Assembly (NCBI GenBank): GCA_043753565.1 | Contig: JAYUWM010000074.1 | Span: 25,273 to 89,272 of the forward strand | Origin: a bacterium | Lineage (GTDB): Bacteria; Patescibacteriota; Saccharimonadia; Saccharimonadales; SZUA-47 | Length of the DNA stretch: 64,000 nt | Direction: 5' to 3' | In this document: in pieces, positions 12,661 to 64,000 of the stretch | Numbering within the stretch: the first letter of the stretch is position 1 | Layout of the letters: each line of letters begins with the position of its first letter | The notes under the pieces: generated by a model | Databases searched by the model: none | Told to the model about the DNA's origin: nothing | What the model saw: the letters and a program-made list of their open reading frames with translations, nothing else | Position numbers and translations under genes: made by a program

Positions 12661-12987
12661 ATGCCAAATTTATATAAAGTCCTTGGACAATCAAACCCAG
12701 CAGCGGCCACACTGACTACACTATACACAGTGCCTACAGCAACTTCGGCGGTCTGCTCTACTCTAGCAATCTGTAATCAAGGCGTTTCAACTTTATACCG
12801 AGTCGCAATTCGCCCAGCAGGAGCGCTCATTTCAGCTGCACACTATATTGTTTTCGATGCTGCGGTCGCTTCATTAGATACTGTTTTCCTTACGTTAGGC
12901 ACTACACTTGCAGCAACTGACGTTATTTCGGTACAAGCAGGTACAACAACAGTCAGCTTTAATCTTTCTGGCACGGAGATTACTTAA
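12661..12987 (+). CDS. small fibre-associated protein (hypothetical)
   Basis: 108 aa; starts 1 nt after the fibre stop and overlaps the next gene start (TAATG). Confidence 0.5.
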   Translation: MPNLYKVLGQSNPAAATLTTLYTVPTATSAVCSTLAICNQGVSTLYRVAIRPAGALISAAHYIVFDAAVASLDTVFLTLGTTLAATDVISVQAGTTTVSFNLSGTEIT

Positions 12988-15440
12988 TGAGTAGCCGCAC
13001 AGCGTCACGAAGCGGGCTTGTTGGAAAAAGCCTTTCTGTACCTTTCATCCATCCAAAGGGGGGAACCTCCAGTGCAGCATGGTACCGTGAACCTAGTTGG
13101 TTAGCACTACCTGACGTTACAGGGCTACAAAGACTTGTCGGTGTCGTTGCGATTTGGCCTGATTCGAACTTTCTTGCAGTGACATGCGCTGGGAGTCTTG
13201 GTTACCTGGTTGATTGGGGAGATGGCACGTCTTCCACAGTAGCCACAACAGTTCAAGCCGACAAACAGTACGATTTTAACTCTGTTTCTCTTGCAAATAC
13301 AAACGCACCCTGCACCTTGACAGATATAGGCGATTTGGTTACGCGTACTGCACACGGGTACACCAGCGGACAAACAGCAAAGTTTTTCAACATTTTAACG
13401 ACTACCGGGTTAACAGATAACTACACATACTTTGTTATCAACGCTACAGCAGACACTTTCCAAGTGGCGTTGACTCTAGGAGGTGCCGCGATTGCATTGA
13501 CACTTGATGGAACTGCGACACTGTTACCGTATAAGCAAGCTATAGTAAGTATAACACCTCAAAGCACAGGGACGTTAACATCACTGAATTTGAACGTAAA
13601 ACATGCAGCAATTGGTGGAAGTATTTTACCTGCGTACACAGCTGGCTGGCTGGATATAGCTATTGCTGGAACGAGTTTAGCTACTTTAACTATTGGGGGC
13701 GTTACTGTATATCAAGGGGATCTAGAACAGGTTAAGATAGTTGGTGGTAATAGCATCACGTCCATGGCCACTATGTTCAGTAACTGCTACTCCTTACAGT
13801 CAGTACCACTGTTCAGTACAGCGGGTGTAACGAATATGGTTAGTATGTTCCTTAACTGCTACTCCTTACAGTCTGTACCGCTATTCAATACAGGGGCTGT
13901 AACGAGTATGGCTAGCATGTTCAACGCCTGCTCCTCCTTACAGTCTGTACCACTGTTCAGTACAGCGGGTGTAACGAATATGGCTAGTATGTTCAACGCC
14001 TGCTACTCCTTACAGTCAGTACCGCTATTCAATACAGTGGCTGTAACGAGTATGTCTAGTATATTCAGTAGCTGCCCTTTATTACAGTCAGTACCTCTGT
14101 TTAATACAGCGGCTGTAACGAGTATGTCTAGTATGTTCAGTAGCTGCTCCTCACTACAGTCAGTACCGCTATTCAATACAGCGGGTGTAACGAATATGGT
14201 TAGTATGTTCATTAACTGCTACTCCTTACAGTCTGTACCGCTATTCAATACAGGGGCTGTAACGAGTATGGCTAGCATGTTCAACGCCTGCTCCTCACTA
14301 CAGTCAGTACCATTGTTTAATACAGCGGCTGTAACGAGTATGACTAGTATGTTCGCTAACTGCCCATCCTTACAGTCAGTACCACTGTTTAATACAGCGG
14401 TTGTAACGAATATGTCTAACATGTTCAACGCCTGCTTCTCTTTACAATCAGTACCTCTCTTCAATACAGGGGCTGTAACGACTATGTCTACTATGTTCAG
14501 TGGTGGCTGCTTCTCCTTACAGTCTGTACCACTGTTCAATACAGTAGCAGTTACCGATATGACCAGCATGTTCAGTAACTGCTCCTCCCTACAGTCAGTA
14601 CCGCTGTTCAATACAGCGGCTGTAACGAGTATGTCCACTATGTTCAACTCCTGTCCCTCCTTACAGTCAGTACCACTGTTCAATACAGCGGCTGTAACGA
14701 GTATGACTAACATGTTCAACACCTGTAGGTCTTTACAGTCAGTACCGCTGTTCAATGCAGGATTGATAGGATTTGCAACTGGCATGTTTTCAAACTCCAC
14801 TCAATTAGCTGTAGGCAGGTTGAATAATTTAAAAGTTGCTATCAGCTACGCAGGGTGTAAGTTATCTAAAACCGCCTTGGAAGATATTTTCAATGGGCTT
14901 GGAAAAGCATCAGGTGCACAGACATTTACCATCGGAACAAACTGGGGGGCAGCCCCTGTAGTATCTCTTTCTGGAACTACTACAGAGGGCTCTCTCACTG
15001 TGACAATGGCAAGCACTACAGGAATTGCAGTTGGGATGCAAGTAACTGGGACCAACTCTCCACTGACAAAAGATGGAGCCGTATCACTACAAGACGCGGG
15101 AGACACTGTTACGCGAGCTAGTCACCTACTACTAAATGGTACTGAAGTTTCGTTTGCAACCATTGTTAATACTACTGGTATTGCTACATTTACCCCATAC
15201 TTTGTTATCAACGCCACAGTAAATACTTTCCAAGTGGCACTGACTGCAGGAGGTGCCGCAATTGCGTTGACCCTTGACGGTACGGGTTCAATTCTGTATC
15301 GAACAGTGGTTGAGGCTATCAACCCAAACGTATCTGTAACGCTTTCGCGCCCCGCCACAGCAAGCGGATTGACAACGCTTACCTATCGTCAGTTAACAAC
15401 AGGAACGGCTATTCTTAAAGGCTGGACTGTTTCAGGATAA
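12987..15440 (+). CDS. BspA-like leucine-rich-repeat (DUF285-type) adhesin / receptor-binding protein
   Basis: 14 tandem 24-aa units xCxSLQSVPLFNTxxVTxMxxMFx, flanked by two paralogous ~68-aa domains (aa 113-180 and 703-770). Confidence 0.8.
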   Translation: MSSRTASRSGLVGKSLSVPFIHPKGGTSSAAWYREPSWLALPDVTGLQRLVGVVAIWPDSNFLAVTCAGSLGYLVDWGDGTSSTVATTVQADKQYDFNSVSLANTNAPCTLTDIGDLVTRTAHGYTSGQTAKFFNILTTTGLTDNYTYFVINATADTFQVALTLGGAAIALTLDGTATLLPYKQAIVSITPQSTGTLTSLNLNVKHAAIGGSILPAYTAGWLDIAIAGTSLATLTIGGVTVYQGDLEQVKIVGGNSITSMATMFSNCYSLQSVPLFSTAGVTNMVSMFLNCYSLQSVPLFNTGAVTSMASMFNACSSLQSVPLFSTAGVTNMASMFNACYSLQSVPLFNTVAVTSMSSIFSSCPLLQSVPLFNTAAVTSMSSMFSSCSSLQSVPLFNTAGVTNMVSMFINCYSLQSVPLFNTGAVTSMASMFNACSSLQSVPLFNTAAVTSMTSMFANCPSLQSVPLFNTAVVTNMSNMFNACFSLQSVPLFNTGAVTTMSTMFSGGCFSLQSVPLFNTVAVTDMTSMFSNCSSLQSVPLFNTAAVTSMSTMFNSCPSLQSVPLFNTAAVTSMTNMFNTCRSLQSVPLFNAGLIGFATGMFSNSTQLAVGRLNNLKVAISYAGCKLSKTALEDIFNGLGKASGAQTFTIGTNWGAAPVVSLSGTTTEGSLTVTMASTTGIAVGMQVTGTNSPLTKDGAVSLQDAGDTVTRASHLLLNGTEVSFATIVNTTGIATFTPYFVINATVNTFQVALTAGGAAIALTLDGTGSILYRTVVEAINPNVSVTLSRPATASGLTTLTYRQLTTGTAILKGWTVSG
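13323..13526 (+). repeat. intragenic domain duplication, copy 1
   Basis: Encodes DIGDLVTRTAHGY...YFVINATADTFQVALTLGGAAIALTLDGTATLL. The paralogous copy is at 15093-15296. Confidence 0.8.
13753..14797 (+). repeat. 14 x 72-bp coding tandem repeat (LRR units)
   Basis: Periodic ...tccttacagtcagtaccgctgttcaatacagcggctgtaacgagtatg... Segments 13821-13936 and 14181-14296 differ at one base. Confidence 0.9.
15093..15296 (+). repeat. intragenic domain duplication, copy 2
   Basis: Encodes DAGDTVTRASH...YFVINATVNTFQVALTAGGAAIALTLDGTGSIL. Confidence 0.8.
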
Positions 15441-38580: not shown

Positions 38581-39581
38581 CATTTATGGACTATACCATT
38601 ATCTTATAACTAACGACGCTATTTTGAATTTTCTATCAAGTCTGGTAGCTGTAGTAGAGTTTTTATATAGCATATTTATTAAGACGGCACTATCATCAAG
38701 TGTAAATCTAATATTATAAACTTGACCCTTAGGGTTTATATTTAATACTATTTTTTGTTCGATAGACTTATTAAGTAATATTTCACAAATACTTTTAAAC
38801 TCTTCTAAGAAACTTTTATTAGCGGAGCACAAACTTAAAGCTACTCTACCTGAAGCAGTTAAATTTAAGTTACCGTCCCCTTCTATATACCCACGCATAA
38901 ACTCTAAGAACAAGTAATCCTCAGTAAAATAGGGTAGCATATAGGTGTGTGTCTTAGCAGGGGTTATATTAAATATACTATTTAAATCCTGTACCATCTT
39001 TTCACTATTAAATCTAATTCTAAACGCAGACTCCTGCATAAAGGGACAAATATCGTGCGAAGAAGAAACGGCTAATTTGAATTTCTCTAAGTGACCTATA
39101 TCCTGCTTTTGTAAAGCTAATCCTACTCTATTACGTTCACCCTCTATCCAACCATCTGCCGCCAAAAAGCCTGCCCAGTAATTAGAAGATTTCGTATTAT
39201 TAGAGAAAAAATGCTCGTTTAATAGTTTCTTTTTTGAGAAATCTAAACCCCATCCTTTAGTTCTATAATTTACTTGTCGTTCTGTTAAATTAAAGTGCCT
39301 ACCAATTTGACTAAAAGTTAGTCCAGTTGCGCGTAGTTCTAAAAATTCTTCTAATGTCATTGTGTATCCCATATGTGGATTTGATACGTTAAATAAGATA
39401 TTCGCCGTGTTATACCTATATAGGTATCCCAGTCAACTTCTGTTCTAGAAGTTCTGTGAGTCTCTGAACCATTTGAAGGTATCCCTACCAACTCTGGCTG
39501 CTGATTATCCTTATTAAGGGCCTTCCAGCAATTGAGCGAATTTATTACCCTTTAATTACTTAAAGGGAGGGCAAAACGTCT
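38581..39581 (-). mobile_element. group I intron carrying a LAGLIDADG homing endonuclease ORF
   Basis: Exon 1 ends ..GGUUGGGGU and the intron ends ..AAAUG. Guide sequence GUUUU-GCCCU (39577-39568) pairs with exon 2 AAAAC (P10) and exon 1 GGGGU (P1, with U.G at the splice site). Splicing restores GWG|KT. Confidence 0.7.
38599..39372 (-). CDS. LAGLIDADG homing endonuclease (intron-encoded)
   Basis: Two motifs, WAGFLAADGWI and FMRGYIEGDGNL, plus an N-terminal HTH-like segment. Confidence 0.8.
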   Translation of the reverse strand: MGYTMTLEEFLELRATGLTFSQIGRHFNLTERQVNYRTKGWGLDFSKKKLLNEHFFSNNTKSSNYWAGFLAADGWIEGERNRVGLALQKQDIGHLEKFKLAVSSSHDICPFMQESAFRIRFNSEKMVQDLNSIFNITPAKTHTYMLPYFTEDYLFLEFMRGYIEGDGNLNLTASGRVALSLCSANKSFLEEFKSICEILLNKSIEQKIVLNINPKGQVYNIRFTLDDSAVLINMLYKNSTTATRLDRKFKIASLVIR

Positions 39582-45956: not shown

Positions 45957-46703
45957 TTAAGCTGCTTTAGCTTCTGCTTTAGCTTTTTTAGCCTGACCAT
46001 CATAATCAGCAACTTTAATGCCGCGACGGGTAAGCAGTGTCTTCAAGCCACGCTCTGTTTTATCCACAGCTTTAGCAATTTCAGCCACGGTCATGGTTGC
46101 AATTGCGTCACCCAAGTCAGTAACAGGGTCTGTTACGTTCTTAGCGTGACTGATCTGCTGCGCAGGAATCTTCTCAATTTGTCCGTTACGGGTTAGGGAC
46201 AGAGCCTTACCGCGAACACTAGCAATAGTCTTGCCAAGTGTGGCTGCAATTTCTTCAATGAATTTACCTGCTTGTGCCATCTTAACAAACACGCCTTCTT
46301 CTGCTGTAGTGTACGTACGCGCTACTTCTACCTTTTCAGCAGCTTTAACACTACCAGTCAACTCAAGAGCAAGAAGCTTGCCCTGAATCTGCTTTGCACT
46401 AAAGGAACCGCCGTCGAACTGCTCGGAGATTTCTTTATACGTCAAATTACCTGCATTACGGCTTACAAATGCGCTCAAAGCAGCACCTTGCTCAGGAGTA
46501 AAGGCAGTAACTTTTTCTTTTGCCATCGAAGCAACTTCACGGTCTAGTTGACGCAGCTTAGAAGCAACAGAACGGGGGGTGAGTTCCATTGTGGCAGCAG
46601 CTTGTTCAACAGAGGCAACGCTTACAGGTGAACTATCTCCTACGATCGACAGGAGTTGTTCAACAGTAGCATCAGACCATTTTTTAGCTTTTGATTCAGT
46701 CAT
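45957..46703 (-). CDS. four-repeat HTH-like protein (hypothetical)
   Basis: Four ~55-aa units, each ending in a ...(I/L)A..LG.(T/S)..SVR.KL..L-like helix. A single-unit paralogue is at 51871..52233. Confidence 0.5.
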   Translation of the reverse strand: MTESKAKKWSDATVEQLLSIVGDSSPVSVASVEQAAATMELTPRSVASKLRQLDREVASMAKEKVTAFTPEQGAALSAFVSRNAGNLTYKEISEQFDGGSFSAKQIQGKLLALELTGSVKAAEKVEVARTYTTAEEGVFVKMAQAGKFIEEIAATLGKTIASVRGKALSLTRNGQIEKIPAQQISHAKNVTDPVTDLGDAIATMTVAEIAKAVDKTERGLKTLLTRRGIKVADYDGQAKKAKAEAKAA

Positions 46704-47458
46704 TAATTTATTTCTTTCAGTAGATCATTTAGATCGGTTATAATTGTAATACCGTATTGAACGGCTTTTTCCCGTTTACTAGACATTTTGCCTTCTTCGT
46801 CTACTAGATAATCTGTAGTTTTAGTTACAGAATCTACTAGAATGTAGCCTGCCGCTGAAAGGGAAGCTTCAGCATCGACTTTCTTCTTGAAGGACTTTAA
46901 CTTACCAGTAATACAAACACGTTTAGCATCTGTATTAACTAATTTCTTCTCCGAACTCTTAAAACTAAAGGGCATAAACTCTTTAATTTCTGGGTACTCT
47001 GTACTAATCCAGTTTAATAGATTAGCTGTTACCTTATCTCCTAGACCTGCTATTTTGCAGGTTTCCTGATTAATTTCTTCAATTGAGGAAACCGTATCAG
47101 CAATCTTCTTAGCAGCAGTTCCGCCAACTAGCGGTATGCTGAAAGCGGCGATTACTGCTGCTAGATCTGCACCCTTAGCGCGCTCAATTTCATCTAGTAG
47201 TTTGTCTGCTGTTTTGGCACCGAGAGCTTCTATTACCATATCTCTATCGAGATAGAACAGCTCGGTAATATCTGCTAAATTTAGTTTTTCAATAGTTTTA
47301 GGGCCAAAGCCTTTAATCTGTAAAACTTTGCAGAAATTCTCTAGTTTCTTATTAAGTTGAGCAGTACATGCCGTGTTTCTGCAGAACAGCTGCTCATTAA
47401 CAAAAATAAGCGAGTATTCGCAACAAGGACACGTAGTGGGAATCTCAATCTTTTGCAT
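46703..47458 (-). CDS. NAD-dependent DNA ligase, C-terminal piece (Zn finger-HhH-BRCT)
   Basis: CPCC...C..C zinc finger, GFGPKT HhH repeats, BRCT-like ITGKL...V. Confidence 0.75.
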   Translation of the reverse strand: MQKIEIPTTCPCCEYSLIFVNEQLFCRNTACTAQLNKKLENFCKVLQIKGFGPKTIEKLNLADITELFYLDRDMVIEALGAKTADKLLDEIERAKGADLAAVIAAFSIPLVGGTAAKKIADTVSSIEEINQETCKIAGLGDKVTANLLNWISTEYPEIKEFMPFSFKSSEKKLVNTDAKRVCITGKLKSFKKKVDAEASLSAAGYILVDSVTKTTDYLVDEEGKMSSKREKAVQYGITIITDLNDLLKEIN

Positions 47459-47528: not shown

Positions 47529-48482
47529 CTAAGCATCTACTTTGTGGGTAATGCAAGGTATTATTTCGCCACCTAAAATCACCCCTACTGTATCACCTAT
47601 ACGCAAGCCTAGCATTTCAATAAACCCAGGGTTATTAAGAGTTGCACGAGATACTAGTTTGTCGCCAATCATAACAGGTTTAAGAACGGCTACAGGCGTG
47701 ACCTTACCACTTTTGCCTACGCCCCATTCTACTGACAGAATCTGAGTTTCTACTGCCTCTTGTCTGACTTTTTTAGCGTAAGCACCATGAGGGAACTTAC
47801 TTGTGTACCCCATACTTTCAAATAGTCTATTGCTATCAACACGAAGTACGACACCGTCACACTCATAGATATTATGTAATTCACTATCGAAAATAGTATT
47901 AAAGCCAAGAGCTTTGAGATTTTGAATATCACGGGTATATGTATCTTCTGTATAAGGTATTACGCTATAAGCGAAAAAGCTAATAGCTCGGGTACAGAAC
48001 TCAGCAGTGTCTTTTAGGTTTAACGCACCACTTGCGTAGTTACGACTATTAGGTACTTCTTTAGGGGCTACAATCTCACCCGTTACTTGAAAAGTACCAG
48101 TGTTAGCAACTGTTAAAGGTACTAGGTCTTTACGAGCAATTACTTTTGCAGTAATGTCTGTACCTTCTGTACCGTCACCACGAGTAAGTGCCTGTACTAG
48201 TTCGCCTTCAATATAAAGCAGGCTTATGGCTGCGCCATCAAGTTTAGGGGTACATACTTTGTTAGGAATGTCTGCTAAAGGGACCGCACCCTCGTCTTCG
48301 TAGTATTTTTTCAGGCTGTACATAGGGTACAAATGCTTGCTAATATTCTCGTGCTGTTTTGCACCTACTTTAGCGTATCCAATCGAATCAGCTAAACGGT
48401 CAAATACTTCGTCACTAATAATAGGGGTTCCAGAGTAGTAAGATATAGACGCCTCGTCCAAATATATTTTAATTTTGTTCAT
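47529..48482 (-). CDS. NAD-dependent DNA ligase, N-terminal piece (adenylation + OB fold)
   Basis: N-terminal YY.G.P.ISD.(E/V)(Y/F)D, nucleotidyl lysine motif KLDG, and RGDG. Confidence 0.8.
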   Translation of the reverse strand: MNKIKIYLDEASISYYSGTPIISDEVFDRLADSIGYAKVGAKQHENISKHLYPMYSLKKYYEDEGAVPLADIPNKVCTPKLDGAAISLLYIEGELVQALTRGDGTEGTDITAKVIARKDLVPLTVANTGTFQVTGEIVAPKEVPNSRNYASGALNLKDTAEFCTRAISFFAYSVIPYTEDTYTRDIQNLKALGFNTIFDSELHNIYECDGVVLRVDSNRLFESMGYTSKFPHGAYAKKVRQEAVETQILSVEWGVGKSGKVTPVAVLKPVMIGDKLVSRATLNNPGFIEMLGLRIGDTVGVILGGEIIPCITHKVDA

Positions 48483-48526: not shown

Positions 48527-49507
48527 TTACTGTAGCCCAAGGAACCATTTGCGGGCTGCACTAGCGGCTGTAGAAGTTACATCTTTACTAGTAAAGCCAC
48601 TGGCCGCTAACGTATCGGACTCTTCTTTAAAGATATCAGACATAACCCACTTAATGAAGACCCCTGTATTTTTAGGGTCACGACTTTCAACGTGCTCTAG
48701 ACCTTGTAGTAGTCTAGGCTCTGTAACTACTTTATCTACAAACTCACGGATTGAGGCAATTTTTTCAACGTCAACAGCTGCTAAAGTACTAACCTTAGAA
48801 CTAGAGTGCTTTTCTCCTTTTACTTTAAACCTTAGCGTGTTGCCTTTATACACGGTAGTCCATACTACCCCTTCTCCTACAAGCTCCCCAGCAAAATCAG
48901 CGCCTAGTAGTTGACGCGCAACTGGGCAGTCCTGCTCTACTAGATTAGTTTGGTATATTAATCCTGCTTGTGCTAGCTCCGGAATGTTAAAGTTAACCTT
49001 AATGGTATAGTTAGGAAACTGGTAGATACTAAGAAGTACTCCGCCGCACGCGTCTAGAACTTCTTGGCTAGACAGGAATTTTTGGGAGTCTGAGTTCTCA
49101 GAGATACGAATAGCAAATACAACAAACATTTTAGGAAGGTTATTAAGGCCTACGCTTTTTTGAATGTTGCCACCACAAAACTCGCCAAATATTTGTACAG
49201 TATCTTGAGCAGTTAAGGTATGCTGGGTCTGTATGTTAGCAAGAACCTGCGTAAATAAAGGCCTATTAGCGTAACTCCAAGTACTAGACCCTGCATTGTC
49301 GTCTTCTGGAGTAGTAACACGTTCACGGCTTTGTGTATACATAATACCTAAAGGTGAGAAACATACCGCGTGATTAGTTCCGTGTAGTTTAACCGTACCG
49401 CTGAAGTTTAGGGTCGGAAGGGGTTCATTGTGAAACTTGGCGGTATCTTTAACGTGTTTAATAACACTGCGAAATTGATCAATAGAAGGAAAAGAAATGT
49501 GTCTCAT
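48527..49507 (-). CDS. Rnl2-like RNA ligase
   Basis: Motif I VKLHGTN (compare EKIHGTN of T4 Rnl2), III FGEFCG, IV GEGVVW, V RFKVKGEKH. Confidence 0.65.
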   Translation of the reverse strand: MRHISFPSIDQFRSVIKHVKDTAKFHNEPLPTLNFSGTVKLHGTNHAVCFSPLGIMYTQSRERVTTPEDDNAGSSTWSYANRPLFTQVLANIQTQHTLTAQDTVQIFGEFCGGNIQKSVGLNNLPKMFVVFAIRISENSDSQKFLSSQEVLDACGGVLLSIYQFPNYTIKVNFNIPELAQAGLIYQTNLVEQDCPVARQLLGADFAGELVGEGVVWTTVYKGNTLRFKVKGEKHSSSKVSTLAAVDVEKIASIREFVDKVVTEPRLLQGLEHVESRDPKNTGVFIKWVMSDIFKEESDTLAASGFTSKDVTSTAASAARKWFLGLQ

Positions 49508-52631: not shown

Positions 52632-52726
52632 ACCATATTTAAGTACCCTAGCAGCCCTGAAGCCCTGAAGCCCTGAAGCCCTGAAGCCCTTGCTGTGGTT
52701 TTAACACAAAGGTACTTAAATATGGT
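52632..52726 (-). ncRNA. CCAUAU-type long hairpin H1
   Basis: 16-bp arms accatatttaagtacc/ggtacttaaatatggt. The interior carries (GCCCTGAA)x4. The arm overlaps the CCA of tRNA-Thr. Confidence 0.6.
52654..52690. repeat. octamer tandem repeat (GCCCTGAA)x4 + partial
   Basis: Exact 8-bp repeats inside hairpin H1. Confidence 0.9.
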
Positions 52727-57454: not shown

Positions 57455-57528
57455 TGGGGTAATAACGGGTTTCAATCCCTATCTTATAGTTTCACAGACG
57501 ATGGTGCTATCATTACACTATTATTACC
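57455..57528 (-). tRNA. tRNA-His(GUG)
   Basis: Encoded G-1 pairs with C73 (G-GTAATAA...TTATTAC-C-CCA). Anticodon loop CUGUGAA. Weak T-arm (GGG-AUUGAAA-CCC). Confidence 0.7.
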
Positions 57529-57529
57529 A

Positions 57530-57823
57530 TTAAAAAGGAATGTCAGTATCCCAAGCACCGTCGTCATACCGAGTAAACTCAGTATACCTGCCATCTTTTT
57601 CAGGTTCTTTAGGGGCTCCCCACTTTTCAAAGTTAGCCATATCTTGAATGGTTTCTATAACAATGTGCTGAAATTTACAGTAGCCTTGCTTTTCTGCCCA
57701 TATTAAGTACTCGTAGTGGTCTTCAATAACGTCACAAACTCTGCAACCTTTTAGTTTACCAAATGTAATTTGATCAAGTAAGCCCAGCTTAGGGTCTTTT
57801 AAGTTTCTAAAGTTTAGGGCCAT
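57530..57823 (-). CDS. hypothetical protein
   Basis: 97-aa ORF; its ATG lies inside the 3' arm of hairpin H2. Confidence 0.5.
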   Translation of the reverse strand: MALNFRNLKDPKLGLLDQITFGKLKGCRVCDVIEDHYEYLIWAEKQGYCKFQHIVIETIQDMANFEKWGAPKEPEKDGRYTEFTRYDDGAWDTDIPF

Positions 57824-57946
57824 ATGTTAGTAGATACGTAAAGTTAACTAAGAAACCCCCAGGCAGGTAGCCCTGTTTCCACTTATGATATGATGCTTCC
57901 AACCACTCTCATATACCCCTTGGGTAGGGTATCTACTAACATATGG
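57820..57946 (-). ncRNA. CCAUAU-type long hairpin H2
   Basis: 18-bp arms ccatatgttagtagatac/gtatctactaacatatgg. It bridges the tRNA-Arg CCA and ATG 57823. Confidence 0.6.
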
Positions 57947-58020
57947 CCTCTCCTGACAGACTCGAACTGCCACCGTACGGTTTCGTAAACCGACGCATTA
58001 TCCATTTGTGCTAAGGAGAG
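57944..58020 (-). tRNA. tRNA-Arg(ACG)
   Basis: Acceptor CTCTCCT/AGGAGAG, anticodon loop UUACGAA, T-loop UUCGAGU, CCA encoded. Confidence 0.85.
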
Positions 58021-59602: not shown

Positions 59603-59676
59603 TGGTACCTGCTGATGGTTACGCTCCACCGTCTAACGATTATCAGTCATTGGCTCTACTATTGAGCTAAGCAGGT
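59603..59676 (-). tRNA. tRNA-Ile(GAU)
   Basis: Acceptor ACCTGCT/AGCAGGT, anticodon loop CUGAUAA, non-canonical T-loop AGCGUAA, CCA encoded. Confidence 0.8.
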
Positions 59677-61705: not shown

Positions 61706-61906
61706 TTACCAGGAAGCTTCGTCTACAACTGTTTTAGTAATAGTTACTAGGTCGCCATTAACCATGGCGACTAGAGATGCTGTTACAAGTGACCCAATAC
61801 CACTAGAAGAGTCTACATTAATAGTAAGGTATTCCGAATCTGGGTACTTAGAATGCCACAAAGTTATAGCAGTTACGTCATCACGGTGTAAGGATATAGT
61901 GTTCAT
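61706..61906 (-). CDS. hypothetical protein
   Basis: 66-aa ORF downstream of a promoter. Confidence 0.5.
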   Translation of the reverse strand: MNTISLHRDDVTAITLWHSKYPDSEYLTINVDSSSGIGSLVTASLVAMVNGDLVTITKTVVDEASW

Positions 61907-61932
61907 TTTGCGGTATTTCCAAATAAGTATTA

Positions 61933-61962
61933 ATTATACAATAAATAATACTTAGTTATCAA
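61933..61962 (-). promoter_or_regulatory. early-type promoter TTGATA-18-TATAATTAAT
   Basis: -35 at 61962-61957, -10 at 61938-61933. Confidence 0.55.
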
Positions 61963-61980
61963 GTTTAAAATTATTAATGC

Positions 61981-62058
61981 TGGCTGACCGTCTTGGAATC
62001 GAACCAAGCTTATTCTTCGTTAACAGCGAAGCGCCTACACCATGTTTGCTTACGGTCA
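61981..62058 (-). tRNA. tRNA-Asn(GUU)
   Basis: Acceptor TGACCGT/ACGGTCA, anticodon stem CUUCG/CGAAG with loop CUGUUAA, T-loop UUCGAUU, CCA encoded. Weak D-stem. Confidence 0.8.
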
Positions 62059-62202
62059 ATTTATTAGTAATCGGTATCCCTCTTCCCGATTGTGTAACTT
62101 GATTTTATAGATGGTTGTCAATTTAGTGTGGCACCAAGAATGACGTTTACCGAGTGTTACTTACCATCAACTCGCATAGGGTTCTTTATCTCTAAAGAAT
62201 AC

Positions 62203-62276
62203 TGGCAGGGGTACTAGGGCTCGAACCTAGAATAACGACGTCAAAGGTCGTTGTGTTACCATTACACTATACCCCA
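62203..62276 (-). tRNA. tRNA-Gln(UUG)
   Basis: TGGGGTA...TACCCCT with U1.U72, anticodon loop CUUUGAC, T-loop UUCGAGC, CCA encoded. Confidence 0.85.
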
Positions 62277-62399
62277 GTAATCATATTTAAGCATACTCCC
62301 ATTTGCCTTATGAGCCGGGTGTTCTTACTGGTTCTTATATACTGCCAACGCGCTAACAATCAGTTGTGCCCATTTACACTAATGCTTAAATATATTTAC
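62277..62399 (-). ncRNA. CCAUAU-type long hairpin H4
   Basis: 12-bp arms atatttaagcat/atgcttaaatat plus outer gtaa/ttac. It abuts the 5' end of tRNA-Gln. Confidence 0.55.
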
Positions 62400-62405
62400 T
62401 ACAAA

Positions 62406-62526
62406 CATATTTATGAATTTTAAATATTAACTACGCCTGACAACGTAGCTGTTTCGCAGGTGTCAGCCTACCGACCTAGGTTCCACGGCATGGTGGAACA
62501 AAAGCCGTCTAAAATTCATAAATATG
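62406..62526 (-). ncRNA. CCAUAU-type long hairpin H5
   Basis: 17-bp arms catatttatgaatttta/taaaattcataaatatg. Confidence 0.6.
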
Positions 62527-62527
62527 C

Positions 62528-62603
62528 GAACTCATTGCAAGCAGGATTCGAACCTACGTTTACCCTAACGGGCCGTCCTAAGCCACTAGACTATTGCGAG
62601 TTC
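62528..62603 (-). ncRNA. tRNA-like module lacking an anticodon loop (Y-RNA/YrlA-like architecture?)
   Basis: D-arm GUCU-AGUGGCUUA-GGAC and canonical T-arm GUAGG-UUCGAAU-CCUGC. The anticodon arm is replaced by GCCC-GUUA-GGGU. Extended 10-bp closing helix GAACUCGCAA/UUGC(AAU)GAGUUC, with no CCA. Confidence 0.55.
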
Positions 62604-62653
62604 TTTGGGTCATGACTCCCAAATCTGGTTAAAGGGTAATTAATCCTCGTGAC

Positions 62654-62765
62654 CATATTTAACAACACTTTAAAGCTACTAGTACACTGTACCGTTACGC
62701 TCCACGCGCGGAGAGTATAATGTTAAGCACCAATCACTCATGAATGATAAATGTTGTTAAATATG
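62654..62765 (-). ncRNA. CCAUAU-type long hairpin H6
   Basis: 14-bp arms catatttaacaaca/tgttgttaaatatg. Confidence 0.6.
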
Positions 62766-62863
62766 ATTAGAGTTAGTTACTTGATGGTACTTAGCACCGT
62801 CTATTACTTAGTATAGGGCACAACTTAACTGCCCGGACGTATTGTCGTTTCACCGAACTCTGA

Positions 62864-62964
62864 CCATATTTAAGTAATCTAATCTTACTATAGTTGGCGC
62901 TATAGATTCGCAACTCGTCAAAGTTACCGGGCTAGTAATTGCCCGTTAAATTACTTAAATATGG
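62864..62964 (-). ncRNA. CCAUAU-type long hairpin H7
   Basis: 15-bp arms ccatatttaagtaat/attacttaaatatgg; two internal hairpins. The arm overlaps the CCA of tRNA-Lys. Confidence 0.6.
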
Positions 62965-63035
62965 TGGGACTGCTAGGTATCGCGCCTAGTTTTACTGGTT
63001 AAAAGCCAGTTACTTCACTTTAAAGTTTCAATCCC
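62962..63035 (-). tRNA. tRNA-Lys(UUU), divergent
   Basis: Acceptor GGGATTG/CAGTCCC, anticodon loop CUUUUAA. T-loop is CGCGAUA and the D-loop lacks GG. Confidence 0.75.
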
Positions 63036-63119
63036 ATTAAATATCCCAACCTTCGCGGTTGAGTGCACCTCGAGTAGCCCTGTAAGGCTTCTGGTGACTA
63101 CCCGCGCTTCTTTTTCTAG

Positions 63120-63153
63120 CTAGTGCCGCAAAGGGGGGGTTTCGCGGCACTAG
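63120..63153. other. strong hairpin with G7 loop
   Basis: ctagtgccgc-aaa-ggggggg-ttt(c)-gcggcactag. A T-rich tract follows on the + strand only. Confidence 0.6.
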
Positions 63154-63158
63154 CGTTT

Positions 63159-63190
63159 GTTTTCGTGTTTTCGTGTTTTCATGTTTTCAT
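63159..63190. repeat. octamer tandem repeat (GTTTTCGT)x2(GTTTTCAT)x2
   Basis: Four contiguous 8-bp units between the hairpin and the stop codon at 63192. Confidence 0.85.
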
Positions 63191-63191
63191 G

Positions 63192-63365
63192 TTAATTATA
63201 TGGTCCGGTGTACACTGGTTTTTCTACTACCCATGTAGGGATATATTGCTGCTGGAAAGGCATACCTGGGTATTCGTGCGTTACACTAGGTTGACCAAAT
63301 GTAACTGTACACTCTTTTGTTTGATCCATTTGCTCTAGCATAGCAATAGCTTCATGAATTTTCAT
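63192..63365 (-). CDS. small hypothetical protein (57 aa)
   Basis: MKIHEAIAMLEQMDQTKECT... Below the ORF-track cutoff; lies 2 nt after the upstream small ORF. Confidence 0.45.
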   Translation of the reverse strand: MKIHEAIAMLEQMDQTKECTVTFGQPSVTHEYPGMPFQQQYIPTWVVEKPVYTGPYN

Positions 63366-63690: not shown

Positions 63691-63766
63691 TGGAGCTATT
63701 TGTTGGACTTGAACCAACGACCTTACCCATACCAAGGGCAAATTCTACCAACTGAACTAAAATAGC
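63691..63766 (-). tRNA. tRNA-Thr(GGU)
   Basis: Acceptor GCTATTT/AAATAGC, anticodon loop UUGGUAU, T-loop UUCAAGU, CCA encoded. Confidence 0.9.
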
Positions 63767-63876
63767 ATATGTTAACACTAACTTGGCTTCTAAGGGCTTA
63801 TAACAATTAAAGGGCTAGGACCCCCACGTAATTGTAATACCTAACTTTCCTAGAGAAAGGCGTAGTGCTAACATAT
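63767..63876 (-). ncRNA. CCAUAU-type long hairpin H8
   Basis: 13-bp arms atatgttaacact/agtgctaacatat (one A.C mismatch). The 3' arm abuts G1 of tRNA-Thr(GGU). Confidence 0.5.
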
Positions 63877-64000
63877 ATTATTCTGCGTACCATCGTGCAG
63901 CTATCTAACAGTATACAAGGTGCGACCATGTATGGATAGGGGGTGAGAACTTATTTGCTTCACTCAGTCTAGACACAGTGCTACTAGCAGGCAATAAAAA

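What the first reader, a model, noticed from the sequence alone, without database searches (positions are those of the whole stretch)
62277..62964. 685-nt tRNA-free stretch made only of four long hairpins, one tRNA-like module and short stems
Between tRNA-Lys and tRNA-Gln the transcript consists, in 5'-to-3' order, of:
- H7
- a ~95-nt element closed by AGAGUU/AACUCU that contains an anticodon-arm-like GGGCA-GUUAAGU-UGCCC
- H6
- a UUUGGG/CCCAAA stem
- the anticodon-less tRNA-like module
- H5
- H4

There is no ORF of 30 aa or more with an RBS. This is the densest concentration of the hairpin family. It is the best place to test whether the hairpins are processed into discrete RNAs.
Basis: seen in the sequence. 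Interest (0 to 1): 0.7.

Follow-up and report, generated by a model that had tools for sequence, protein, structure and literature searches.

The report
Phage tRNA-operon hairpin and tRNA-like RNAs
Between two tRNA genes of a distant T5-like phage lies a real, conserved array of non-coding structured RNAs (long hairpins plus anticodon-less tRNA look-alikes), the same kind of thing as the 'stable RNAs of unknown function' annotated in phage T5; one piece belongs to a widespread, uncatalogued phage RNA family.

Summary
On the minus strand, 62277-62964 lies between tRNA-Lys(UUU) and tRNA-Gln(UUG). It contains four long hairpins with 17-20 nt AU-rich stems, a 93-nt cloverleaf-like element, two small hairpins and an anticodon-less tRNA-like module. 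The sense strand folds at -220 kcal/mol (z = -6.7), against -180 for the antisense strand.

The long hairpins belong to a family that starts at the encoded CCA of the preceding tRNA or tRNA-like unit. Among 884 phage tRNA 3' ends, 80 carry such a hairpin and 0 do after shuffling.

The tRNA-like module belongs to a conserved family of 43 distinct sequences, found only in phage and metagenome contigs. Of its 33 base pairs, 16 show compensatory changes. The family has no Rfam entry of its own. The hairpin in front of it has a self-complementary loop.

Phage T5's record annotates 'stable RNAs with unknown functions' in its tRNA region. They have the same architecture and the same position.

Best reading: these are co-transcribed, non-decoding RNAs derived from or resembling tRNAs, cut out by the tRNA-processing machinery and probably RNase III. 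Any role beyond that is unknown.

A decoy role against tRNA-targeting defence is not supported by my test, though not excluded. Verdict: a new variant of a known kind whose function is unsolved.

The parts
62965..63035 (-). tRNA-Lys(UUU), the upstream boundary. It has non-canonical D and T loops (T loop CGCGAUA), and its encoded CCA forms the first pairs of H7.
   Evidence: Rfam tRNA 46.3 bits. ARAGORN misses it. Conserved in L001 with 2 compensatory pairs.
62863..62965 (-). H7: a CCA-anchored long hairpin with a 20-nt stem (ACCAUAUUUAAGUAAUUUAA / UUAGAUUACUUAAAUAUGGU) that encloses three small hairpins in a four-way junction.
   Evidence: -41.4 kcal/mol. Conserved in L001, where 4 changed pairs are kept and 1 is broken.
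62769..62861 (-). A 93-nt cloverleaf-like element closed by AGAGUU/AACUCU, with three hairpins inside. The middle one is GGGCA-GUUAAGUUG-UGCCC (62834-62816). It has no canonical D or T loops. The L001 copy ends in ACCA.
   Evidence: 4 changed pairs kept and 2 broken. No tRNA hit at E<=10.
62654..62765 (-). H6: a long hairpin with a 17-nt stem (CAUAUUUAACAACAUUU / AAGUGUUGUUAAAUAUG). L001 keeps the stem but has an unrelated interior.
62626..62648 (-). Small hairpin A (GAGGAUUAAUUACCCUU, whose loop contains the palindrome UAAUUA), followed by a conserved CCA at 62628-62626.
   Evidence: A hairpin followed by CCA is present in all family members examined.
62604..62623 (-). Small hairpin B: UUUGGG-AGUCAUGA-CCCAAA. 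The loop holds the self-complementary hexamer UCAUGA. The same GGGAGUCAUGACCC hairpin occurs in T5 RNAX.
   Evidence: All 6 stem pairs show double-sided changes across the family.
62527..62603 (-). Anticodon-less tRNA-like module. Its parts are an extended acceptor (GAACUC/GAGUUC, an invariant AAU bulge, then GCAA/UUGC), a D arm, a 4-bp stem with a GUUA loop, a T arm (GGUUCGAAUCC) and a discriminator G.
   Evidence: Rfam tRNA 34.9 bits. Family alignment A3 and its covariation. Model R1 scores it 91.1 bits.
62406..62526 (-). H5: a long hairpin with a perfect 17-nt stem (CAUAUUUAUGAAUUUUA / UAAAAUUCAUAAAUAUG) that encloses three hairpins.
   Evidence: -53.4 kcal/mol. 8 changed pairs kept and 5 broken against L001.
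62276..62400 (-). H4: a long hairpin (AGUAAAUAUAUUUAAGCAU / AUGCUUAAAUAUGAUUACU) that abuts the 5' end of tRNA-Gln. It is missing as a unit from the closest relative, L001.
62203..62276 (-). tRNA-Gln(UUG), the downstream boundary.
52632..52726 (-). Member of the same hairpin family outside the finding. It is anchored on the CCA of tRNA-Thr(UGU), and its interior holds four copies of GGGCUUCA.
57818..57948 (-). Member of the same hairpin family, anchored on the CCA of tRNA-Arg(ACG), with a perfect 20-nt stem.
63761..63882 (-). Member of the same hairpin family that ends in the 5' end of tRNA-Thr(GGU).
   Evidence: L001 has the orthologous hairpin at 3559-3678.

Best explanation
The stretch is part of a polycistronic tRNA transcript on the minus strand of a distant T5-like phage. 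It encodes an array of non-decoding RNA modules that are derived from tRNAs or resemble them.

**The two kinds of module**
- Units with tRNA-type ends alternate with long hairpins. These units are tRNA-Lys, the 93-nt cloverleaf-like element, the anticodon-less tRNA-like module and tRNA-Gln.
- Each long hairpin has a 16-20 bp AU-rich stem that begins at the CCA (or its remnant CA) of the preceding unit (H4, which follows H5, instead reaches the 5' end of tRNA-Gln).
- The stems act like leader-trailer duplexes. Each encloses a fast-evolving core, usually of three hairpins; in related phages 17 of 77 such cores still carry a canonical T arm.

**Proposed mechanism (inferred, not shown)**
1. RNase P cuts at the 5' side of each tRNA-type unit.
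2. A double-strand cut of the RNase III type, or an RNase E cut at CCA-U|AUU, near the base of each long stem frees the 3' end of the preceding unit.
3. Each hairpin is released as a closed, exonuclease-resistant small RNA of about 100-125 nt.

These RNAs would be the counterparts of T5's stable RNAs I, III, IV, 1, 2, 2H, 3 and X.

**Shown here:** the structures, their conservation and covariation, the CCA anchoring, the sense-strand bias and the T5 parallel.

**Inferred:** transcription, the processing enzymes and accumulation of the RNAs.

**Not known:** any role beyond punctuating, insulating and protecting the tRNA precursor.
For: **Structure**
- Four inverted repeats with 17-20 nt arms lie in 688 nt.
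- The sense-strand fold is -220 kcal/mol (z = -6.7), 40 kcal/mol better than the antisense strand.
- In 94 family hairpins, the tRNA strand is the more stable one in 77. G-U pairs number 348 against 210. This points to RNA-level rather than DNA-level structure.

**CCA anchoring**
- 37 of 447 hairpins start at -6 to +3 of a tRNA 3' end. I estimate about 1.4 by chance.
- Of 884 distinct tRNA 3' ends, 80 have an anchored hairpin of at least 16 pairs, against 0 after shuffling. The consensus is CCA-UAUWDAARYAYAUU.

**Positions are conserved and cores are not**
- Hairpins follow Lys(UUU), Thr(UGU) and Arg(ACG) in the window, L001 and L017.
- In L001 the H6 core is replaced and H4 is absent.
- L003 has a single hairpin between tRNA-Lys and tRNA-Gln.

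**tRNA ancestry**
- 17 of 77 distinct hairpins contain a canonical T arm, against my estimate of about 1 by chance.
- The cores of H7 and H5, the 93-nt element, and T5 RNAIII and RNAIV all fold into three-hairpin junctions.

**The tRNA-like module is a real family**
- There are 43 distinct sequences. 98.7% of cells are paired, 16 of 33 pairs have double-sided changes, and 0 of 500 shuffles reach the observed values.
- Its upstream neighbour is tRNA-Lys(UUU) in 30 loci and tRNA-Glu(UUC) in 13.

**T5 precedent**
- Record NC_005859 annotates stable RNAs in the tRNA region.
- RNAIII starts 4 nt after the GCCA end of RNAI and ends at the 5' end of tRNA-His. It folds with a 12-bp terminal stem and a 2-nt 3' overhang.
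- RNAX (719 nt) contains the same GGGAGUCAUGACCC hairpin.

**Non-coding**
- The only ORFs are short and start with GTG or TTG.
- The alignment with L001 has 1-nt indels.
Against: - There are no expression or end-mapping data for this phage, so transcription and processing rest on analogy.
- Apart from the hairpin B motif there is no sequence homology to the T5 RNAs. The best R1 hit in T5, at 35.7 bits, is an ordinary tRNA-Arg.
- RNase E needs single-stranded RNA, yet its candidate site lies inside the stem.
- Stems of 16-20 bp are at the lower end for RNase III substrates.
- A pure spacer role does not explain why cores of 60-90 nt are kept and stay structured.
- It also does not explain why the tRNA-like module is so strongly conserved.
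- Covariation for H7, H5 and the 93-nt element rests on one relative only.
Confidence: 0.55

Rival explanations
1. **Anti-defence decoys.** The hairpins and tRNA look-alikes would bind or absorb host tRNA-targeting nucleases (anticodon nucleases, PARIS AriB, retron PtuAB and the like) or tRNA-sensing immune proteins. This would protect the phage's real tRNAs.
For: - The array sits between tRNA-Lys(UUU) and tRNA-Gln(UUG).
- The tRNA-like family follows tRNA-Lys(UUU) or tRNA-Glu(UUC) in 43 of about 53 loci.
- tRNA-Lys is the target of PARIS, and T5 escapes with its own tRNA-Lys (PMC11464382).
- The phage encodes an RNA ligase (PF09414), which fits pressure from tRNA cleavage.
- The cores turn over fast, as expected in an arms race.
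- H7 contains CUUUGAC, the anticodon-loop sequence of the phage's tRNA-Gln.
Against: - Anticodon-loop 7-mers occur 2 times against about 0.6 expected, and their flanks do not form anticodon stems.
- The 'anticodon-like' loop is 9 nt.
- The middle arm of the tRNA-like family has loops of 4-7 nt with no conserved U33 or anticodon, so it cannot mimic the part that AriB- or PrrC-type enzymes recognise.
- Fast turnover of the cores fits weak constraint equally well.
Confidence: 0.17
2. **DNA-level palindromic cassettes.** The hairpins would be MITE-like elements or recombination sites that spread or shuffle within phage tRNA clusters. Their RNA structure would be incidental.
For: - Terminal inverted repeats share a consensus (CCATATTTAAGTA...) between non-orthologous copies and between distant phages.
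- H4 is present in the window and absent from L001 as a unit.
- The same core occurs after different tRNAs, even within one genome (L133 Trp against Lys, 86% over 52 nt).
Against: - The preference for sense-strand G-U pairs and stability (77 of 94) points to selection on RNA.
- The seven copies in the window all have different cores.
- No target-site duplication is visible at the H4 indel.
- No transposase was recognised among the 19 window ORFs scanned against Pfam.
- The start is fixed at the CCA of a transcribed tRNA.
- T5 counterparts accumulate as RNAs according to the record.
Confidence: 0.1
3. **One large RNA.** The whole 688 nt would act as a single ornate RNA, comparable to T5 RNAX (719 nt) or to GOLLD/ROOL-type RNAs that sit next to phage tRNAs. 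It would not be an array of separate small RNAs.
For: - T5 RNAX is annotated as one 719-nt stable RNA next to a tRNA and shares hairpin B.
- A GOLLD RNA lies in the tRNA cluster of a phage that carries the tRNA-like family (L146).
- There is no canonical tRNA inside the stretch.
Against: - The modules come and go independently. H4 is absent from L001, and L003 has only one hairpin between Lys and Gln. In L093 tRNA-Lys is followed by one hairpin, the module and two more hairpins.
- There is no Rfam hit to GOLLD or ROOL.
- The predicted long-range pairs are few and are not conserved.
Confidence: 0.08
4. **Decaying pseudo-tRNAs.** The modules would be relics of tRNA gene duplication with no function of their own.
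For: - There is a continuum from cores with a T arm to unrecognisable cores.
- Cores are replaced and lost.
- The modules do no decoding.
Against: - The stem sequences and positions are conserved across distant lineages.
- The folds are significantly stable.
- The tRNA-like family is under strong purifying selection, with compensatory changes.
Confidence: 0.1

Closest known systems
Phage T5 stable RNAs of the tRNA region (RNAI, RNAIII, RNAIV, RNA2H, the tRNA-like RNA1/RNA2/RNA3, and the 719-nt RNAX; record NC_005859)
   Same: - They lie inside the tRNA cluster on the tRNA strand and are contiguous with tRNAs.
- They are 70-170 nt long and closed by a terminal stem.
- RNAIII and RNAIV have three-hairpin cores.
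- RNAIII's stem pairs the GCCA end of the preceding RNA and ends at the next tRNA.
- Some are tRNA-like with T arms.
- RNAX shares the GGGAGUCAUGACCC hairpin.
   Different: - There is no detectable sequence homology otherwise.
- The CCAUAUUUAAGUA-type stem consensus is not that of T5.
- T5 has no high-scoring member of the anticodon-less tRNA-like family.
- The function of the T5 RNAs is itself unknown.
Processing stems of rRNA operons and RNase III sites of phage T7 early RNA (from established knowledge)
   Same: Complementary leader and trailer sequences form a long duplex around a structured RNA within a polycistronic transcript. Staggered cleavage releases it. T5 RNAIII as annotated has a 2-nt 3' overhang.
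   Different: Cleavage by RNase III is not shown here. The stems are shorter (16-20 bp) and start exactly at a tRNA CCA end.
tRNA punctuation and tRNA-like 't-elements' or mascRNA (mitochondrial transcripts, MALAT1; from established knowledge, PMC1920247 listed)
   Same: Non-decoding tRNA-like structures placed between other RNAs could recruit RNase P and 3' processing to define ends.
   Different: Those are eukaryotic or organellar systems. Here the look-alikes sit inside a bacterial-virus tRNA operon, and one of them has a 10-bp bulged acceptor stem.
Bacterial Y RNAs (YrlA) (from established knowledge)
   Same: A long terminal stem combined with a tRNA-like domain, sometimes phage-encoded.
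   Different: - In YrlA the termini sit on the anticodon-stem side. Here the order is the normal tRNA order, and the long stem extends the acceptor.
- No Rfam Y RNA hit.
- None of the 19 window ORFs scanned against Pfam looked like Ro/Rsr.
HIV-1 dimerisation initiation site and other kissing-loop hairpins (from established knowledge)
   Same: In most family members, hairpin B has a 9-nt loop made of two purines, a 6-nt palindrome and an A (AG-UAAUUA-A). The palindrome changes symmetrically to UCAUGA or CAUAUG.
   Different: Dimerisation is untested. The window's loop is 8 nt (AG-UCAUGA). The context is a phage tRNA operon.
Two-piece (permuted) tmRNA of related phages
   Same: It sits in the same tRNA clusters of relatives (L002, L003, L110, L146). 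It has a tRNA-like domain without an anticodon, and a CCA-anchored hairpin serves as its intervening segment.
   Different: The window stretch has no tag reading frame, no pseudoknots, and no ARAGORN or Rfam tmRNA hit.

Membership tests
Canonical tRNA | Cloverleaf with D arm and T arm (GGUUCGAAUCC-type T loop) | tested here: met
   Module 62527-62603: Rfam tRNA 34.9 bits, above the 29-bit cut-off, with D and T arms aligned. The 93-nt element and H4-H7 give no tRNA hit at E<=10.
Canonical tRNA | 5-bp anticodon stem with a 7-nt loop carrying an anticodon | tested here: not met
   The module has a 4-bp stem with a GUUA loop. Across the family the loop is 4-7 nt with no conserved U33. ARAGORN calls no tRNA. 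The loop of the 93-nt element is 9 nt.
Canonical tRNA | 7-bp acceptor stem followed by a discriminator and CCA | tested here: not met
   The acceptor is 6 bp, an AAU bulge, then 4 bp. G-CCA follows in about half of the family, and G-CA in the window.
T5-type stable RNAs of the phage tRNA region | Non-coding, on the tRNA strand inside the tRNA cluster, abutting tRNA ends, closed by a terminal stem | tested here: met
   for the window. for T5 RNAIII, RNAIV and RNA2H.
T5-type stable RNAs of the phage tRNA region | Accumulates as a discrete stable RNA in infected cells | not testable with these tools
   No expression data. Needs a northern blot or small-RNA-seq.
T5-type stable RNAs of the phage tRNA region | Sequence homology to the T5 RNAs | tested here: not met
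   No megablast or blastn match. R1 finds only tRNA-level scores in T5. The only shared piece is the hairpin GGGAGUCAUGACCC.
CCA-anchored long hairpins of phage tRNA clusters (family defined here) | Stem of at least 13 bp that starts within the NCCA of a tRNA or tRNA-like unit, AU-rich, with consensus CCAUAUWDAAR and an interior of 20-160 nt | tested here: met
   H7 starts at the ACCA of tRNA-Lys. H6 and H5 start at CA after tRNA-like units (in L001, H6 starts at ACCA). The family statistic is 80 against 0.
Anticodon-less tRNA-like family with bulged acceptor (family defined here, model R1) | Hairpin B, GAACUC/GAGUUY, an AAU bulge, GCRR/YYGC, a 3-4 bp D stem, a short middle arm and a T arm | tested here: met
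   The window copy scores 91.1 bits with R1 (it was part of the seed). All features are visible in A3.
tmRNA (one- or two-piece) | tRNA-like domain with a tag reading frame and pseudoknots | tested here: not met
   No ARAGORN tmRNA and no Rfam tmRNA hit in the window, although relatives carry one.
GOLLD / ROOL large ornate RNAs | Match to the Rfam models | tested here: not met
   No hit at the gathering score or at E<=10. GOLLD is found in L146 as a positive control.
Bacterial Y RNA (YrlA) | Termini form the Ro-binding stem on the anticodon side of a tRNA-like domain, and the RNA is linked to rsr | tested here: not met
   No Rfam hit. The order of arms is the normal tRNA order. No Ro/Rsr domain among the ORFs scanned (not all ORFs were scanned).
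MITE / REP-type mobile palindromic elements | Terminal inverted repeats, target-site duplication and several near-identical copies | tested here: inconclusive
   Inverted termini with a shared consensus are present. No duplication is seen at the H4 indel. The seven window copies have unrelated cores, but paralogous cores exist in other phages.
RNase III processing stem | Double-stranded stem cut with a 2-nt 3' overhang | not testable with these tools
   The geometry is compatible (16-20 bp AU-rich stems, and T5 RNAIII's annotated ends leave a 2-nt 3' overhang). Cleavage itself is untested.
Kissing-loop dimerisation hairpin (DIS-like) | Loop holding a self-complementary hexamer flanked by purines | tested here: met
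   Loops are AG-UAAUUA-A/C (52 copies), AG-UCAUGA (9), AG-UAAUUG (7, which stays self-complementary through G-U) and CAUAUG (2). No mixed, non-self-complementary variant occurs upstream of the module. Dimer formation is untested.

The most novel reading that the evidence does not exclude
The anticodon-less tRNA-like RNA and its leader hairpins would form a self-assembling RNA.

- Hairpin A (UAAUUA) and hairpin B (UCAUGA) carry two different self-complementary loops. Across the family these loops change only by symmetric double substitutions.
- Copies could therefore pair loop to loop into dimers or larger assemblies.
- The result would be a small relative, in principle, of the multimeric GOLLD/ROOL RNAs that occupy the same phage tRNA clusters.
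- Such an assembly would display several tRNA elbows at once, for example to capture a tRNA-binding host factor.
Probability: 0.12. Interest if true: 0.85.

Novelty: new variant of a known kind. Interest (0 to 1): 0.6.

Why it matters
Phage tRNA clusters are now seen as counter-defence tools, yet the stable RNAs that T5 makes from the same region are still annotated with unknown functions. This window shows that such RNAs are not peculiar to T5.

- One class, the long hairpins that start at the CCA end of a tRNA, recurs across distant uncultivated phages. It has a conserved stem sequence.
- A second class, an anticodon-less tRNA look-alike with a bulged 10-bp acceptor stem and palindromic-loop leader hairpins, is a well-conserved family. 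It has no Rfam entry of its own, and no match was found in a scan of 185,579 bacterial and archaeal genomes.

Together these give defined, testable objects. The questions they open are how phage tRNA operons are processed, and whether non-decoding tRNA look-alikes have a role of their own.

Tried and rejected
- **Nearby sequence matches.** Megablast of 61900-63200 against 50,697 phage records gave no match. Distant blastn of the module gave one weak hit in an uncultured megaphage. The commoner subtype gave only a weak hit in an Alcaligenes phage.
- **Rfam.** At the gathering score and at E<=10, only tRNA hits and chance-level matches appeared. SpF41 sRNA scored 20.8 bits against a 52-bit cut-off, though it has a similar outline.
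- **tmRNA, GOLLD/ROOL and Y RNA.** All rejected.
- **Anticodon-loop mimicry.** Tested and not significant.
- **Homologue in T5.** A search with model R1 found only ordinary tRNAs at 35.7 bits or less.
- **Cellular genomes.** A scan with the family pattern gave 0 hits.
- **Literature.** Four searches for T5 stable RNAs or tRNA-like phage RNAs returned results (one search failed on a term shorter than 3 characters). None found an open-access description. What I say about T5 rests on the GenBank record and my own folding.
- **Coding potential.** Rejected. The ORFs are short with GTG or TTG starts, and 1-nt indels occur in L001.
- **Internal promoter.** The promoter-like match inside the region (62417-62389, 9 of 12) was treated as chance, because the region-wide promoter count is near the shuffled expectation.
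Full report
**Context**

The window comes from a distant relative of T5-like phages. Its family A DNA polymerase is 47% identical to those of Vibrio phage pVp-1 and coliphage DT57C. No phage record matches the DNA.

From about 52.3 kb to the end of the window at 64 kb, the minus strand carries a tRNA cluster. ARAGORN finds 17 tRNAs there. Rfam adds four more tRNA-type hits, including tRNA-Lys(UUU) at 62965-63035 and a weak hit at 62533-62600. Strong sigma-70-type promoters point along the minus strand, for example 63550-63522 and 61962-61933. The finding therefore lies inside a minus-strand transcription unit that reads tRNA-Lys, the 688-nt stretch, tRNA-Gln, tRNA-Asn.

**The observation**

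Reading 5' to 3' on the minus strand:

| Element | Coordinates | Main features |
|---|---|---|
| H7 | 62965-62863 | 20-nt arms |
| Cloverleaf-like element | 62861-62769 | Closed by AGAGUU/AACUCU |
| H6 | 62765-62654 | 17-nt arms |
| Hairpin A, then CCA | 62648-62626 | Small hairpin |
| Hairpin B | 62623-62604 | UUUGGG-AGUCAUGA-CCCAAA |
| tRNA-like module | 62603-62527 | No anticodon arm |
| H5 | 62526-62406 | Perfect 17-nt arms |
| H4 | 62400-62276 | Abuts tRNA-Gln |

- The sense strand folds to -220 kcal/mol (z = -6.7). The antisense strand reaches -180 (z = -4.9).
- One detail is wrong. The 'anticodon-arm-like' hairpin has a 9-nt loop (GUUAAGUUG), not 7 nt.
- Mechanical ORFs of 25-56 aa exist. 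They have GTG or TTG starts, and single-base indels in the closest relative break them.

**The long hairpins are one family, anchored on CCA ends**

The 5' arm of H7 starts at the ACCA of tRNA-Lys. The window has three more copies:
- one after tRNA-Thr(UGU) at 52632-52726;
- one after tRNA-Arg(ACG) at 57818-57948;
- one before tRNA-Thr(GGU) at 63761-63882.

I fetched relatives through the ClpP-like gene of the cluster and through a hairpin pattern.

- Long hairpins number 172 in 1.31 Mb of these loci, against 47 in block-shuffled sequence.
- 37 hairpins start within -6 to +3 of a tRNA 3' end. I estimate about 1.4 by chance.
- With all loci held at the end, 884 distinct tRNA 3' ends give 80 anchored hairpins of at least 16 pairs. 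Shuffling the downstream sequence gives none. The consensus after CCA is UAUWDAARYAYAUU.
- tRNA-Lys(UUU) carries such a hairpin in 35 of 46 cases. That sample is enriched for loci found through the neighbouring module.
- The structure is on the RNA sense strand. In 77 of 94 hairpins the tRNA strand is the more stable one, and G-U pairs number 348 against 210.

**Stems are conserved and cores are not**

The closest relative is L001, whose ClpP is 87% identical.

- It aligns through tRNA-Lys, H7, the 93-nt element, the module and H5, with compensatory changes. Examples are CUAUAG/CUAUAG becoming CCCAAG/CUUGG in H7, and GGGCA/UGCCC becoming AGGCA/UGCCU.
- It keeps only the stem of H6 around an unrelated core.
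- It lacks H4 altogether.
- Changed pairs kept against broken are 4/1 in H7, 4/2 in the 93-nt element, 8/5 in H5 and 8/8 in H6.
- In L003, tRNA-Lys and tRNA-Gln are separated by a single anchored hairpin. In L017 and L093 the hairpin cores after tRNA-Lys are unrelated to H7.
- In other phages the same core occurs after different tRNAs, even within one genome. In L133 the copies after Trp and Lys are 86% identical over 52 nt. Cores are therefore duplicated or shuffled as cassettes.

**The cores look like former tRNAs**

Seventeen of 77 distinct anchored hairpins contain a canonical T arm, a 5-bp stem with a UUCRANN loop. I estimate about one by chance.

Several cores fold as small cloverleaves with a truncated anticodon arm inside the long stem. 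H7, H5 and the 93-nt element, like T5 RNAIII and RNAIV, have three-hairpin cores without recognisable T loops. The L001 copy of the 93-nt element ends in ACCA.

I read the long hairpins as tRNA-like RNAs enclosed by a leader-trailer duplex, in various states of divergence.

**The tRNA-like module is a member of a widespread family**

A pattern from its invariant 3' part (GGTTCGANTCCTNNNNGCAATGAGTT) gave these results:
- 15 viral and 52 metagenome loci, mostly from lakes;
- none in 185,579 bacterial and archaeal genomes.

The 43 distinct sequences (alignment A3) share these features:
- hairpin B;
- an extended acceptor, made of GAACUC/GAGUUY, an invariant AAU bulge and GCRR/YYGC;
- a 3-bp D stem;
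- a middle arm with a loop of 4-7 nt;
- in one subtype, a long variable arm and a tRNA-Leu-like D loop;
- a canonical T arm;
- then G and, in about half of the sequences, CCA, followed by the next long hairpin.

On this structure 98.7% of cells pair, and 16 of 33 pairs show changes on both sides. No shuffle out of 500 reaches the observed values on four of the five measures, including the covariation score (2 of 500 reach the count of further pair types), and slid controls fall to 29-49% paired.

Part of the invariance comes from the search pattern. GAACUCGC, hairpin B, the D stem and the middle arms were not in the pattern.

Rfam has no family for it. It scores only weakly with the tRNA model. 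Its upstream neighbour is tRNA-Lys(UUU) in 30 loci and tRNA-Glu(UUC) in 13. A covariance model (R1) separates members (58-104 bits) from ordinary tRNAs (36 bits or less), and finds no member in T5.

**Self-complementary loops**

- Hairpin B's loop is AG-UAAUUA-A/C in most members, AG-UCAUGA in the window's group, UAAUUG in a few, and CAUAUG in two.
- No non-self-complementary mixture occurs upstream of a module.
- The change from UAAUUA to UCAUGA needs two symmetric substitutions.
- In the window's group, hairpin A carries UAAUUA and hairpin B carries UCAUGA.
- This is the format of kissing-loop dimerisation hairpins. Whether dimers form is untested.

**The T5 precedent**

The T5 record (NC_005859) annotates 'stable RNA with unknown functions' inside its tRNA region:

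| RNA | Length (nt) | Note |
|---|---|---|
| RNAIII | 106 | |
| RNAI | 107 | |
| RNAIV | 103 | |
| RNA2H | 172 | |
| RNA1 | 144 | tRNA-like |
| RNA2 | 125 | tRNA-like |
| RNA3 | 73 | tRNA-like |
| RNAX | 719 | Next to tRNA-Arg |

When folded, RNAIII, RNAIV and RNA2H are long terminal stems around several hairpins. RNAI ends in GCCA. RNAIII begins 4 nt after that CCA, its stem pairs the GCCA with the first bases of tRNA-His, and it ends at the tRNA-His 5' end. As annotated, it has a 12-bp terminal stem with a 2-nt 3' overhang. RNAX contains GGUAGGGAGUCAUGACCCUAACC, the same hairpin as hairpin B here.

This is the same kind of object as the window's stretch, although the sequences are otherwise unrelated.

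**How it most likely works**

*Shown:*
- the modules are conserved RNA structures on the tRNA strand;
- the long stems begin at CCA ends;
- units with tRNA-type ends alternate with hairpins.

*Inferred:*
1. RNase P cuts at each tRNA-type 5' end.
2. A cut near the base of each long stem releases the preceding 3' end. It would be of the RNase III type, which the stem length, the AU richness and the RNAIII overhang suggest. Alternatively RNase E would cut at CCA-U|AUU, which fits the RN|WUU preference known for that enzyme.
3. The closed hairpins survive as stable RNAs.

This accounts for the conserved stems, the free-running cores, the gain and loss of modules and the T5 species. It does not explain the strong conservation of the tRNA-like family or the palindromic loops, which point to a function of their own.

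**Rivals**

- *Decoys against tRNA-targeting defence.* This is attractive because of the Lys/Glu/Gln neighbourhood, the phage RNA ligase and the PARIS-T5 tRNA-Lys story (PMC11464382). But anticodon-loop mimicry is not significant, and the family lacks an anticodon loop.
- *DNA-level mobile palindromes.* These fit the indel and the paralogous cores. They do not fit the sense-strand bias or the CCA anchoring.
- *A single large RNA.* The independent gain and loss of modules makes this unlikely.
- *Plain pseudo-tRNA decay.* This does not fit the conserved stems or the conserved family.

**Verdict**

The finding is real and well described. It is a new variant of a known kind whose function remains unsolved: the stable RNAs of phage tRNA clusters.

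- the CCA-anchored hairpin family, with its conserved stem sequence;
- an uncatalogued, covariation-supported family of anticodon-less tRNA look-alikes with self-complementary leader loops.

Noticed in passing
window 62965-63035 (-): tRNA-Lys(UUU) has non-canonical D and T loops. It has no GG in the D loop, and its T loop is CGCGAUA rather than UUCGAAU. ARAGORN misses it. The oddity is conserved in L001 (T loop GGCAGUA). tRNA-Lys is the target of PARIS AriB and of PrrC-type nucleases, so this may be a nuclease-resistant variant.
   Followed up: partly
L002 6706-7069; L003 9157-9597; L110 7672-8069; L146 941-1359: Related phages carry a permuted (two-piece) tmRNA inside their tRNA clusters (Rfam RF04321, 108-144 bits; ARAGORN reads the tag ANDTQFALAA in L002, L003 and L089). 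In L002 the segment between the two pieces is itself a CCA-anchored hairpin. None is detected in the window.
   Followed up: partly
L146 7976-8443: A GOLLD RNA (205 bits) lies in the same phage tRNA cluster that holds the tRNA-like family and a permuted tmRNA. A tRNA hit (8039-8110) lies inside it.
   Followed up: no
window 48527-49507 (-): An ORF of 326 aa has an RNA ligase domain (PF09414, E = 1e-13). It lies next to a split NAD-dependent DNA ligase (47529-48482 and 46703-47458). It may have an RNA repair function relevant to tRNA cleavage.
   Followed up: no
window 52632-52726 (-): The core of the hairpin after tRNA-Thr(UGU) consists largely of four tandem copies of GGGCUUCA.
   Followed up: no
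window 59606-59676 and 57458-57527 (-): Two further Rfam tRNA hits (50.9 and 31.5 bits) that ARAGORN does not call. They may be additional non-canonical tRNAs or tRNA look-alikes in the cluster.
   Followed up: no
window 63119-63195: A GC-rich hairpin has a run of seven G (C on the minus strand) in its loop (63119-63154). An 8-nt tandem repeat follows (GTTTTCGT x2, then GTTTTCAT x2). On the plus strand the hairpin looks like a terminator. It lies between the small ORFs and tRNA-Lys.
   Followed up: no
window 62059-62202 (-): The 144-nt spacer between tRNA-Gln and tRNA-Asn also contains several small hairpins, for example UUCUUUAGAGAUAAAGAA. It is conserved in L001 (83% identity).
   Followed up: no
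L017 3213-3373: This relative's copy of the tRNA-like module has a 60-nt insertion with a second D-like and T-like arm (GUUGGUUCGAAUCCAGC). That makes it a nested double tRNA look-alike, reminiscent of T5 RNA2, which also has two T-arm motifs.
   Followed up: partly
window 38599-39372 (-) and 12987-15440 (+): A LAGLIDADG-type ORF lies in the replication module. A large 817-aa protein has four DUF285 repeats, and the 16-18 kb region has unusually high GC (0.54).
   Followed up: no
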